The notes beneath the pieces are model-generated. The model made no database searches, was not told where the DNA came from, and worked only from the letters and a program-made list of their open reading frames with translations. Shown piece by piece: positions 26,885-31,215 of a stretch of DNA of 64,000 nucleotides; within the stretch, counting starts at the first letter, position 1, and each line of letters starts with the position of its first letter. Origin of the DNA: Microbotryum violaceum (taxonomy: Eukaryota); contig CDLV01000006.1 in NCBI GenBank assembly GCA_001244265.2, positions 2,356,001 to 2,420,000 on the forward strand, given 5' to 3'. The translations under genes and the position numbers were made by a program.

Positions 26885-27021
26885 CACCTCTGGCTATATA
26901 CATAAGCACGCTAAAAAGTGGCGCGCGCGGCGCGCCTTCGACCCTCGCTTCCGCGCGGCGTAGCCATACATGTTGCCCGCCTGCAACCCGGGTTGCTGGA
27001 TGGCCCCAGGACTAGGGCAAC
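26885..27021 (+). repeat. Left TIR (137 bp)
   Basis: CACCTCTGGCTATATACATAAG... is the reverse complement of 31079-31215. Confidence 0.95.
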
Positions 27022-27329
27022 TTGCTAATGAGATTGGCCTATTATTAGGGAGTACTTGTGCAATCGCCCAAGAGCTGTCTCTTCTAGCCTCCCCCCGCTC
27101 AGCGCAAAATCAGACCCGCCTCAGTTCTAACACGAGCACCAACTATTGTAACACACAGTAACACATTCTCGAATCAATCTACGGCATATGTATCAGACAA
27201 TGGACAGGCATAAATGGAATCGCTTCAAGTTCTGACCTGACAGGCTACTTCGAGGGACATCCTGACTATAAGCCCCGAGGCCTTCGTTCGGACGCTCGAA
27301 TCCGCACCAACATCCCCGGAACCCGGCAC

Positions 27330-28463
27330 ATGGTTACGTACACTGCGCGCCAAATTCAGCAAAGAACCTTCGATGAACATGCTCGTGGCGAAGCTAGCTC
27401 GCCGTCTCCTCGGCCTCCAATGGCCCCTCGATACAGGCCGATTTCGACGAAGCCGCCAACCCGAGTGGGATGGATTGGGATGATGAACGTCACAGCGAGT
27501 ACGGTGGTGGCCATGAACGCGACTTTAGTCCGGCCCCATATTTTTCGGATCGAACATCCCGTATGCCAATCGCGCCTGACTATATTGCAACCGCCGAGCG
27601 ATTATCATTGGCTGATCTGCGCCAAGTCGAAAGTTTCGAACCAGCCACACGTGGTCAGTCGAAGAAAGAAACGTACAAGCAGTGTGTGTTCAACGACGCT
27701 CGTCTAAGGAGCTTGGAACGGCCAGCGCTTCTGCGCCAGTATATTGCGTTTTGCGCTGGGGCAGAAGCGAAAAAGAGGTGGAGGGAGCGCAACAGTTTTG
27801 AAGGAGTATAGGACCCGCATCCAAGACTTTGACGACATCCTCGCGCGCATCTTCACCGTCACCGTTGACATTGCCGCCGAATATGAGGAATCGCGCCTAT
27901 TCCGTGAAATCCTTTCACCCCTGTACCAAGAGTGCCAATGCCCCCTCCCTGAGGACGAAATAAGGACCGACGAGGACCAGGAGGGGAGTGACCGCCTTTT
28001 TAAGATGGATCCAAAAGGTGTACCGCCCTTTTCTCGGGAAACGTGCCCCGGACGAGTACTGGGATCAGTTAGAAAGCGAACATCGCACCTGGCAAGCAGC
28101 GCTCAGACCATTTGCAACGACGGTGCTTGTCAGGAGTAGGTCCAAGCTTTACCACTAGCCTACGCTGACCTCAAAAAGGTACAGTATCCACTCTGAAAGG
28201 AGTGGACAGCTTGGTACTATGTATGGCCAACCCCCAGTGAAACGAGCTAGGAATTGCAGGATTACTGGTTCATGACAGTGCTCGTCCACGTTCCCGAACC
28301 TCCCAAGCCGCCCACCGATGCGGACCGAGAGCCCGAAAGGAAGAAGATCTGGGACTCCTGGATTGTTGAGTGTGCCCACAGGTGGTTGGCGCTGTTGAGC
28401 AAACAGAGGGAGACGTATCGTTGGATGCGCAAGAGGGGTCCAGCGGAGAGGGTGCCGCGTTGA
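27330..28463 (+). pseudogene. Degenerate orphan coding region inside the TIR element
   Basis: Overlapping protein-like ORFs. ORFs 27744-28139 and 28254-28463 share one frame, interrupted by TAG 28137, TGA 28194 and TAG 28248. Confidence 0.5.
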
Positions 28464-28930
28464 CCTCAGGGGCACGAGAGAAGGACGCGATATCGGAACA
28501 CAGTTCGGCGACAGGCCAACATTCCGACCACGGATCAGCAGCCGGCTCGGAGGCCAAAAGCAACCTCTCCGCCCTCTCCGAGCTGACCAGCCTGAGCAAG
28601 CTGGAGCGCGGCCTGGATACTGGGACATGCGGCACCATGAGTGTCAATTCACCAGTTAGGCAATGACCGTCTCGAGTTTTCCGTGAGCGTGTGTAGCCAT
28701 CTAGCTTGTATGTTATGTCAATGGAGATCCTGCATTGCAACCATGATTCACCCCGAGGGTACAACGCACTCCGAAGGCGGAAATTCTTGTTCAATTTTTA
28801 ACCTTAGGGCAGGGCGTAGATACACTACAACAGAGTCCCGCGCCTCCGGAAATGAGGAAGCGGTATGCGACGACATGCTTCATCAATTCTAGGACACTCT
28901 TAACAAGCACTGTACAACCGGCGTGGCGAT

Positions 28931-29513
28931 GTGTACCCGCCGGAGGTACACACGACGGGTGCCCTCTCCAGCTGTGTACCCCTGGGGTTCCACGGCTCAG
29001 GCGCGGTCCGTCGCCGCCGACGGCCTTGCTGACTGCACTACAACAAACTTCCACGCCCCCGTTCAAAGCTCAGGATGTGTCTGGGGTTACGTAATGGAAT
29101 AACCTCTTGCGACGAGACCGACGAAAAATTTGTTTGCTACATCCGACTTGCACTCTGAAAAACCCGCAAGGCCAACGCACTTCCCTAGCTGAATTCTTCG
29201 TTCGAATCAGCTTCCGAGCAGAGCAGAGCGAAACTGCACTACAACGAACTTCCACGCACCCGCTCAAAGCCCAGGATGTGTCTGAAGTTACCGAAAGGAT
29301 TCACCTCCCGCCGTTGGAGACTCGTATATGTTATTATACAGTGATCTGCCACCGGTGACCGACTTTGCACCCCGGGGGTACACAAGGCGCAAGCGGGAAG
29401 CGCCTGTGTACTCCCGGGGGCACGCAGGACTGGTCCACTCTTCCGCTGTGTACTCCCGGTAATGATCACACCCCGCGCGCCGACTCTGTGTATGTGTACC
29501 CCGGGAGTACACA
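28931..29513. repeat. Cluster of about 6 palindromic motifs (TGTGTAC-CCCGGG-GTACACA-like) and a 59-bp direct repeat pair
   Basis: Palindromes near 28931, 28974, 29366, 29405, 29447 (half site) and 29493. Direct repeats at 29032-29090 and 29233-29291 are 53/59 identical. Confidence 0.85.
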
Positions 29514-29535
29514 GCCCCTACAAGGTCCTTGGCCG

Positions 29536-29853
29536 ATGGACCGATATCCCTGCTCACTCGACTACATAAACTATCACGTCAACGGAGTAGGTATGCGGTG
29601 ACGTATTTCATTGATTTTTGCTGACATGTTATCGCAAGCACTGTACAACGGAGCGCCGTTGGACGCGTCTGGACCCATGCTTTGGGGTGCTGTTGGAACA
29701 GAACAACTACAGCAACACCAATCCTCACCGCCCCCCGCCCCCTCTGGCAACGTTCCCAAACCTGAACCTGCAGATGTCAGCACCGATGCGCACCAAAATT
29801 TAGTCTTTAACTTAGCAGAACCTTCAAGCTTGTCACGTACTGCAGTTCGGTGA
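29536..29853 (+). CDS. Small spliced orphan gene or gene remnant inside the TIR element
   Basis: ATG at 29536. Intron 29591-29638 (GTATGC...CTGAC...AAG) joins frames to give MDRYPCSLDYINYHVNGVALYNGAPL... A second donor GTGAGT at 29850 has a downstream CTGAC but no clear acceptor. Confidence 0.4.
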
Positions 29854-30039
29854 GTGTGGCGGTGGCGACCGGCTCGTGGGATCGTGGTCGTCAACACGTC
29901 AACGCCTGATTAAGGCTGACATTCATTTTACTTTTGTGCACTGGCGTACATTTCCATCATGTGCGATATGGGCCGCATACAAAAAGCAAAGTCCTTCAAT
30001 AACAAATAATCTACAGTCAACAAATACGCCAAACCATCC

Positions 30040-30787
30040 CTAGCTAGCCCATGGGCTCGTCGAGAATCTCGAGGTCGTCCGAGTCTTCAACGCTTGCCAG
30101 CCCGACTCTCCGTCGCCCTCCCCGAGCTCAGCATCATCTTCTTCCTCGACCTCGTGCTCCGATCGTGAACCAAAAACTTCTTTCACTCGTCTTTCATACA
30201 CATCATCGCGGTCTCGCTCGGCATGCTCCGCGGCTGGATCGGGGGTCAGGCCAAGTTCCCTTCGGAATGCGTCGAGGTCGATGGTTGTGTGGCGCACGTC
30301 CACGGCAGAAGGACCTGATGAGCGGCGGCTCGACTCAGTGACGAGGCTCTGTATTTGAGTATTATTCAGCGTCGAAAGGCGGCGACCGAAATGACGTGGA
30401 CTACCGCGCGACCGGCGCAACACCTGTTTCGCCCGTCCGGCGAAAACTCCTCCGATCAAACCGAATGCCGTGGGCCGAGATTCATGAACTGCGGGTAAAC
30501 GGGTAAACGCATTCTGAACCAGACAACCGAGAGATCATCGCATTCGGCGAGCCGATCCAGACGCTCTTTGACCAAAATCTGCCGGCGTTGAAGCACATAC
30601 CACACCGCAGTGCCAACCTCGCCCGCGGGTGGAAGCGGCAAACGCTGACGCGTTGCTGGGAGCAGACAGGAGAGGCAACACATCGTATGGTCGGTGGGCT
30701 TCGATTCAAGATATACGACAGAAAGCGTGAGGGAACAGAAAGTAGTAAGACCAGGACCGTGATCGATAGCGGCGCGTCAAGCGGCAA
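30040..30787 (-). pseudogene. Possible inward-facing cargo ORF(s): a Cys-rich segment followed by an acidic segment
   Basis: ORFs 30482-30787 and 30040-30459 (EHEVEEEDDAELGEGDGE). No family recognised. Confidence 0.3.
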
Positions 30788-31078
30788 TGCTGTTGCTCGC
30801 TCGCGCTCAGGCTCGCTACGGCCGGTCTACCAGCGTGGTGAGACGGCACGTGACTTAACCACGTCCCTCAATGCTACCTTATCCCCACTGCTAATGAGGT
30901 AATGATGTAATGATGTTCTAATCGAGCTTCTTCTCGCTACTAATCTAAAGAAGAAATTGACGATGAGTTTTCCGAATATGCTTTATTACACAATGTCAGC
31001 ATTTATAAGATTGGATTACACCGATACGAGCTCGCACGTACATGAGATGAACGTGTTGAAGGCCACACCAGCCTCCGT

Positions 31079-31215
31079 GTTGCGCTAGTCCTCGCGCCAT
31101 CCAGCAACCCGGGTTACAGGCGGGCAACATGTATGGCTACGCCGCGCGGAAGCGAGGGTCGGAGGCGCGCTGCGCGCGCCACTTTTTAGCGTGCTTATGT
31201 ATATAGCCAGAGGTG
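31079..31215 (-). repeat. Right TIR (137 bp)
   Basis: Ends ...GTATATAGCCAGAGGTG; reverse complement of the left TIR. Confidence 0.95.

What the first reader, a model, noticed from the sequence alone, without database searches (positions are those of the whole stretch)
26885..31215. Unclassified 4.3-kb TIR element carrying orphan genes but no recognisable transposase
Seen: 137-bp TIRs (131/137 identical) with CAC...GTG ends, each containing TATATA and a GC-rich palindromic block. Inside are a plus-strand degenerate gene behind the left TIR, minus-strand ORFs behind the right TIR (both pointing inward), a small spliced ORF and a central repeat array. No DDE motif was recognised and there is no clean TSD. 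Established: CAC termini typify the CACTA/Mirage/Chapaev and Transib lineages, long promoter-bearing TIRs typify Mutator, and basidiomycetes also host KDZ and Plavaka elements. Inference: a Pack-type gene-carrying non-autonomous element, or a member of an undescribed family. This is the best candidate for a new system in this window.
Basis: partly seen in the sequence, partly recalled or inferred. Interest (0 to 1): 0.75.

Follow-up and report, generated by a model that had tools for sequence, protein, structure and literature searches.

The report
Inside-out non-autonomous KDZ transposon subfamily
This is a crippled copy of a known kind of fungal cut-and-paste transposon (KDZ) in an anther-smut fungus, whose middle was flipped and trimmed so that the two genes swapped tails; the rearranged form then spread to many sites, so its 'orphan' genes are pieces of the transposon's own genes and not captured cargo.

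Summary
The 137-bp TIRs are real (131/137), but the genes are not orphans. The plus-strand remnant is residues 1-188 of a Microbotryum KDZ transposase (PF18758 + CxC1). The minus-strand remnant is residues ~895-1086 of the same protein. The catalytic core is deleted, which is why no DDE motif was seen. The N-terminus is joined to the 3' half of the parent element's partner gene ('gene B'). Contig loose ends at both joints show that a convergent two-gene parent had its central ~2.9 kb inverted, with a deletion at each side. The rearranged unit is multicopy: 12 of 18 chimeric gene models in M. silenes-dioicae have the C-terminal fragment within 4 locus tags. Junction-spanning contigs have about 10 times flank depth in run X14. 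Termini (CACCTC), long TIRs and CxC1 point to the Dileera branch, like Cryptococcus KDZ1-3. No TSD at this copy and no empty site found. Verdict: non-autonomous derivative of a known superfamily with an unusual inverted interior; not Pack-type, not a new system.

The parts
26885..27021 (+). Left TIR (137 bp, begins CACCTC); transposase-side end of the parent
   Evidence: gene models of full-length transposases begin in this arm
27200..27761 (+). 5' remnant of the KDZ transposase gene, residues 1-188 of ~1086; in this copy a stop at codon 12 and a 1-base frameshift near 27428
   Evidence: tblastn 77-86% identity to full-length P0006/P0009/P0012; loose end at 27761 continues into the parent transposase in X13, X14, X16; frames
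27762..28630 (+). 3' remnant of the parent's partner gene B, residues 215-451; joined without overlap and out of frame to the transposase remnant
   Evidence: loose end before 27762 reads into gene B upstream residues in X16
28128..28277 (.). 150-bp TG...CA insertion with a 5-bp duplication (GTGCT), solo-LTR-like, inside the gene B remnant; shared by many sibling copies
   Evidence: joint 28122>28278 skipping 155 bases in 4 of 4 runs; text derived from the insert in 10 of 19 models screened
28631..30043 (.). Intergenic centre of the parent (between the two stop codons), inverted with the rest; holds short dispersed repeats and a predicted small spliced ORF (29536-29853, +)
   Evidence: high depth throughout. 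The small ORF was not searched as a spliced protein
30044..30627 (-). 3' remnant of the same KDZ transposase gene, residues ~895-1086; an 8-bp duplication at 30494-30509 shifts the frame
   Evidence: tblastn 86-90% over 135 aa; loose end at 30627 continues into upstream transposase codons in 4 of 4 runs
30634..31078 (-). Right arm interior; inferred promoter and 5' region of gene B. 30628-30633 is a 6-base stretch matching neither side exactly
   Evidence: loose end before 30634 in 4 of 4 runs; X14 contig of 1250 nt with 189 nt on the window. Its link to gene B is inferred
31079..31215 (-). Right TIR (137 bp)

Best explanation
A non-autonomous derivative of a Microbotryum KDZ (probably Dileera-branch) cut-and-paste transposon. 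The parent (about 7.5-8 kb, my estimate) has long TIRs and two convergent genes: a ~1086-aa CxC1+KDZ transposase from the left end and a ~450-aa partner (gene B) from the right end. In one ancestor the central ~2.9 kb was inverted. About 706 codons of transposase (CxC1 and the catalytic core) were lost at one joint, and the first 214 codons of gene B at the other. Each TIR now faces the tail of the other gene. Both ends stayed intact, so the unit was moved in trans by the parent's transposase and multiplied; it later gained a 150-bp LTR-like insert and kept multiplying. SHOWN: identity of the three remnants, both joints, loss of the core, many copies, gene B beside the transposase in full-length elements. 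INFERRED: the convergent layout of the parent (three of four joint sides assigned by sequence, the fourth by elimination), origin by template switching during gap repair after excision, mobilisation in trans, and the Dileera placement.
For: Homologs of the plus-strand ORF: 17 hits among 1279 candidates, all Microbotryum, 6 with PF18758. Full-length ones score 163-185 bits against a KDZ cut-off of 26.6, with weak CxC1 hits. They match the window only at residues 1-194 (+) and ~884-1086 (-). Loose ends at 27761, 27762 and 30627 read (by hand) as the parent transposase, gene B, and the parent transposase again. Gene B lies within 1-2 tags of a transposase model for 12 of 12 M. saponariae gene B models, and within 3 tags for 8 of 9 core-bearing M. 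silenes-dioicae transposase models. Rearranged unit: 12 of 18 chimeric models have a C-terminal fragment within 4 tags, on 8 contigs. In X14 a contig spanning the right joint has depth 282, parent-type contigs 234 and 214, flanks 23.5 and 30.4. 13 of 14 derivative rows form one group (98/90) in a 99-column tree. Termini match Dileera-2_MLP in the first six bases.
Against: No TSD at this copy, whereas Dileera and KDZ1 make 8 bp and KDZ2/3 make 4-8 bp. No empty site in 4 of 4 runs laid, so insertion here by transposition is not shown. Locus-tag adjacency gives no strand or distance. 6 of 18 chimeric models had no separate partner among my hits (one of them holds both parts in one model). One derivative row (P0005) falls among the parents in the tree, and the bootstrap had not settled. 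Contig depth is not a copy number. No whole parent sequence was seen. CxC1 hits are below Pfam's cut-off (19-23 bits against 26.9).
Confidence: 0.88

Rival explanations
1. Pack-type element: TIRs of a CACTA or Mutator element carrying captured host-gene fragments.
For: CAC...GTG ends, long TIRs, and inward-pointing ORFs with no Pfam hit of their own. Gene B has no known domain, so its remote origin is unknown.
Against: Both remnants are 77-90% identical to one KDZ transposase. All 12 M. saponariae gene B models sit beside a transposase model. CAC ends also occur in Dileera.
Confidence: 0.02
2. Two separate truncated KDZ copies lying tail to tail or nested at this locus only, so the TIR pair is accidental and the 4.3 kb never moved as one piece.
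For: No TSD; no single contig spans the element.
Against: The same pair of remnants recurs at 12 annotated loci; the right joint is spanned by contigs at many times flank depth in X14 and X16.
Confidence: 0.03
3. The inverted form is real but spread, at least here, by ectopic recombination, gene conversion or segmental duplication between existing copies, not by its own transposition. That would explain the unrelated flanks.
For: No TSD and no empty site; P0005 looks recombinant; P0065 holds both remnants on one strand.
Against: Depth rises and falls at the TIR ends, and flanks are at single-copy depth. Another copy in X16 has a different left flank, and model P0040 starts in a different flank. 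Recombination would more easily explain this one copy than the whole subfamily.
Confidence: 0.07

Closest known systems
Cryptococcus neoformans KDZ1, KDZ2, KDZ3 (PMC11343200: passages and section 8 read; bioRxiv 10.1101/2025.05.19.654958: passages read; PMC12810828: supplementary table rows read)
   Same: CxC1+KDZ transposase in the parent, long TIRs (139-241 bp there, 137 here), extra genes of unknown function inside
   Different: Those are 9-11 kb full-length mobile elements with 4-8-bp TSDs, and no clearly non-autonomous copies were seen to move. This one is 4.3 kb, lacks the core, has an inverted interior and shows no TSD.
Dileera elements of rust fungi (Kojima 2025, PMC12730594: abstract, passages, four Table S1 rows cut at 400 characters)
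   Same: Pucciniomycotina host; termini CACCTC (Dileera-2_MLP), CACCCC (Dileera-1_PTrit), GACCTT (Zisupton-1/2_PGr) against CACCTC here
   Different: Those listed carry TET/JBP and are 10-20 kb, with an 8-bp TSD reported for Zisupton-1_PGr. Gene B had no Pfam hit to any dioxygenase. No tree with reference Dileera proteins could be built.
Kyakuja (Kojima 2025, passages)
   Same: KDZ core; CA..TG termini
   Different: Kyakuja elements are described as having no TIRs and 7-bp TSDs; this has 137-bp TIRs.
Maize MuDR and its deletion derivatives; Drosophila KP element (both recalled, no call)
   Same: Works like MuDR in layout: two convergent genes driven from long TIRs with repeats between them. 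Like KP, sibling copies keep a truncated transposase N-terminus.
   Different: Unrelated transposase family. The inversion makes no hairpin or antisense copy of either gene, unlike Mu killer (recalled).

Membership tests
KDZ superfamily (as a derivative) | Transposase with the KDZ core (PF18758) | tested here: met
   Met by the parent proteins (163-190 bits), to which the window remnants are 77-90% identical. The core itself is deleted from this copy.
KDZ superfamily (as a derivative) | CxC zinc-binding domain before the core | tested here: inconclusive
   CxC1 hit in 6 of 9 core-bearing proteins scanned, E 7e-5 to 1e-3, below the curated cut-off; deleted from the window copy
Dileera branch | TIRs, with termini like known members | tested here: met
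   137-bp TIRs; first six bases equal Dileera-2_MLP, and 4-5 of 6 match the other three rows
Dileera branch | 8-bp TSD (4-8 bp for Cryptococcus KDZ2/3) | tested here: inconclusive
   Absent at this one copy (3 of 8 match); no other copy with both flanks and no empty site could be read
Dileera branch | Placement in the Dileera clade of a transposase tree | not tested
Kyakuja branch | No TIRs, 7-bp TSD | tested here: not met
   Long TIRs present; 3 of 7 flank bases match
CACTA/EnSpm, Transib, Plavaka (CMCT) | CMCT-type transposase and 2-5-bp TSD | tested here: not met
   Parent transposase hits KDZ, with no Tnp2 or Plavaka family listed; no exact 2-5-bp TSD, 3-bp flanks match at 2 of 3
Mutator / Pack-MULE | MULE transposase or captured host fragments, 9-11-bp TSD | tested here: not met
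   Interior is the element's own genes; flanks match at 2 of 9, 5 of 10 and 5 of 11
A named Repbase or Dfam family | Sequence match to a curated consensus | not testable with these tools

The most novel reading that the evidence does not exclude
The parent is a MuDR-like two-gene KDZ element whose gene B (weak leads to a BED-type zinc finger and an HMG-like tail) is a required helper. The inverted subfamily spread to as many copies as its parent because it also regulates it: sibling copies with an open 5' frame would make a ~207-aa transposase N-terminus acting as a KP-like repressor, or the copies titrate the transposase.
Probability: 0.08. Interest if true: 0.6.

Novelty: new variant of a known kind. 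Interest (0 to 1): 0.3.

Why it matters
It removes a candidate 'new system' and shows how one can be mimicked: an inversion with flanking deletions turns a two-gene transposon into a TIR element with two inward-pointing ORFs that no profile recognises, and gene predictors list these as dozens of hypothetical proteins. It also gives a natural test of what KDZ transposition needs in cis (ends only, interior order free) and points to an uncharacterised partner gene that stays with this transposase in two Microbotryum species. I found no description of this family: searches for Microbotryum with Zisupton or KDZ returned no paper on it, and the Microbotryum TE survey I checked (10.1101/2022.08.03.502670, passages) has 0 occurrences of KDZ or Zisupton in its main text. 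Repbase, Iyer et al. 2014 and that preprint's supplements could not be seen.

Tried and rejected
No whole genome is held, so genome-wide TIR pairing was impossible. Pfam on 19 ORFs in or beside the element gave nothing at cut-off, because the core is deleted. ESM Atlas: no usable hit for the minus-strand ORF; for gene B only sub-0.9 hits, including BED-finger clusters at 0.81, which is a lead only. AlphaFold2 of gene B: mean pLDDT 37.8, unusable, so no fold search was run. The HMG-like tail rests on a distant homolog at E 0.06 and is a lead only. The TIR pattern in metagenome contigs gave 0 matches. A transposase scan of metagenomes gave 6 distant loci (35-57%) with no gene B or element DNA match. 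No RNA holder is listed; X16, guessed as RNA, looks like low-depth DNA, so expression is untested. No empty-site joint in 4 of 4 runs. A synteny test of the flanks failed: 0 of 10 flank ORFs were in the collection as exact sequences. Sequence look-ups among earlier findings were blank in 4 of 4. Considered and rejected: an ambisense densovirus-like insert and a hairpin silencer (the remnants are transposase, and the only long inverted repeat is the TIR); a 3-bp TSD with one mismatch (GTG/GTT, expected by chance about one time in seven). Iyer et al. 2014 is not held.

Full report
Observation. The element runs from 26885 to 31215 (4331 bp) between 137-bp inverted repeats that differ at 6 positions. 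Both arms begin CACCTC and hold TATATA and a GC-rich block; the arm is not notably structured (z -1.63). The flanks give no duplication for any length from 2 to 11, and none of 7-9 bp when the ends are shifted. The centre holds dispersed short repeats, not a tandem array. No other copy lies in the window.

What the genes are. Pfam found nothing in the window ORFs. A homolog search with 27398-27808 against longer proteins returned 17 hits, all from Microbotryum, 6 of them with the KDZ domain. The full-length ones (1019-1111 aa) score far above the KDZ cut-off and have a weak CxC1 hit. Laid back on the window, they match in two places only: residues 1-194 on the plus strand behind the left TIR, and residues ~884-1086 on the minus strand behind the right TIR. 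So the two inward-pointing genes are the head and the tail of one transposase, facing each other. Everything between residues 189 and 894, including CxC1 (235-288) and the motifs that I take from recall to hold the catalytic residues (near 367, 487 and 542 in P0059), is missing. The stretch 27762-28630 is residues 215-451 of a second protein, gene B, whose full-length form (P0019, P0073) turned up.

The parent. Gene B travels with the transposase. All 12 M. saponariae gene B models in the cluster read lie within 1-2 locus tags of a transposase model, and 8 of 9 core-bearing M. silenes-dioicae transposase models have a full-length gene B within 3 tags. Public contigs laid on the window give the joints. 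Behind 27761, contigs of X13, X14 and X16 leave the window and continue in the transposase frame. Before 27762, an X16 contig comes in from gene B's upstream codons. Behind 30627, contigs of all four runs continue into upstream transposase codons. Before 30634, contigs come in from other sequence (1061 extra bases in an X14 contig whose depth, 214, is close to that of the parent transposase contig, 234). I translated the three coding loose ends by hand against the proteins; the fourth is non-coding in the 30 bases shown, and I assign it to gene B's 5' side by elimination. The simplest parent is: left TIR, transposase, intergenic centre, gene B on the other strand, right TIR, about 7.5-8 kb by my estimate. 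The window copy is that element with 27762-30627 inverted and a deletion at each side. The left joint has no overlap and is out of frame; the right has six bases that fit neither side exactly. Template switching during gap repair after excision is the likeliest cause (inference from recalled Ds, P and Mu derivatives; one search listed 18 papers on abortive gap repair, none with the phrase 'internal inversion', and I read none of them).

It is a family. In M. silenes-dioicae 18 gene models join the transposase N-terminus to the gene B tail. Twelve of them have a transposase C-terminal fragment within 4 tags, on 8 contigs; one more holds both parts in a single model, and 5 had no partner among my hits. 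An M. lychnidis-dioicae model (P0044) ends in the same junction read-through. None of the 18 is from M. saponariae, which suggests, without proving, that the inversion arose after that split. In a 99-column tree, 13 of 14 derivative rows, the window included, form one group (98/90); P0005 sits among the parents and the bootstrap was rough. In run X14 a contig spanning the right joint has depth 282 against flanks of 23.5 and 30.4; in X16 29 against 3-8. Depth is not a copy number, but it fits about ten copies beside a similar number of parents. There are at least two layers: copies without and copies with a 150-bp TG...CA insert flanked by GTGCT. The window copy belongs to the later layer, so the unit kept multiplying after the insert arrived. 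Ectocarpus KDZ elements with fixed nested insertions and dead transposases are read the same way (PMC12477816, passages). This copy is further decayed, with an early stop and frameshifts.

Against. No TSD and no empty site were found, so transposition into this site is not shown; an adjacent deletion or recombination between copies may have changed one flank. Contigs bridge the left end in X14 and the right end in X16, so the insertion is not an assembly artefact. No contig spans the whole unit and no whole parent was seen. Locus tags give neither strand nor distance. Expression is untested.

Comparison. Cryptococcus KDZ1-3 have CxC1+KDZ transposases, 139-241-bp TIRs, 4-8-bp TSDs and extra genes, and were placed in Dileera. 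Kojima 2025 gives Kyakuja no TIRs and a 7-bp TSD, and Dileera an 8-bp TSD. The rust Dileera consensus termini include CACCTC and CACCCC. So CAC ends do not point to CACTA here. I file the element as a KDZ derivative, probably Dileera; the tree test and Repbase check were not possible. In layout the parent works like MuDR (recalled), but it is not a Mutator. Gene B stays unexplained: no Pfam domain, weak BED-finger and HMG-like leads, and an unusable model. Earlier notes of this scan describe other multi-gene KDZ elements in the same genome, one with 122-bp TIRs and an 8-bp TSD. I did not test them, and sequence look-ups found no overlap with this family.

Verdict. A real, multicopy, non-autonomous derivative of a known superfamily. 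The inverted interior with swapped gene tails, and its spread to parent-like numbers, are unusual, and I found them in no paper that I could search. It is not a new system. Interest 0.3.

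Noticed in passing
window 26333-26727: A ~395-bp foldback (arms 60 nt at 83%, 30 nt at 93%, 21 nt at 90%) 157 bp left of the TIR, at single-copy depth in X12 and X14; flanks loosely alike over 10 bases. Possibly an old MITE.
   Followed up: partly
window 28128-28277: 150-bp solo-LTR-like insert with a 5-bp duplication; contig joints suggest it also occurs elsewhere, once beside a TIR end (X14) and once in inverted arrangement.
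   Followed up: partly
window 4400-9137: LTR element with a 212-bp identical direct repeat 4360 bp apart and an 80-bp tandem unit in one LTR; looks recent. The Copia label is my recall from the ORFs and was not tested.
   Followed up: no
window 12585-12725 and 33743-33883: 141-bp inverted match at 84% identity, 21 kb apart, on either side of the element; unexplained.
   Followed up: no
window 26928-26980: A TIR variant lacking 51 bases appears at single-copy depth in X13, X14 and X16.
   Followed up: no
proteins P0021, P0094, P0023, P0015: Other simple deletion derivatives of the same parent (gene B with its middle removed; transposase head joined to its own tail or 3' region), so the family has several derivative types.
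   Followed up: partly
proteins P0022, P0095: Distant gene B homologs in M. lychnidis-dioicae (39% over 155 aa) with a weak HMG-box hit; probably from a sister KDZ family.
   Followed up: partly
window 26885-31215: TCG and CGA are less over-represented inside the element (1.11 and 1.25 of expected) than in the rest of the window (1.71 and 1.79), which fits the TCG hypermutation reported for Microbotryum repeats (passage). No test of significance.
   Followed up: partly
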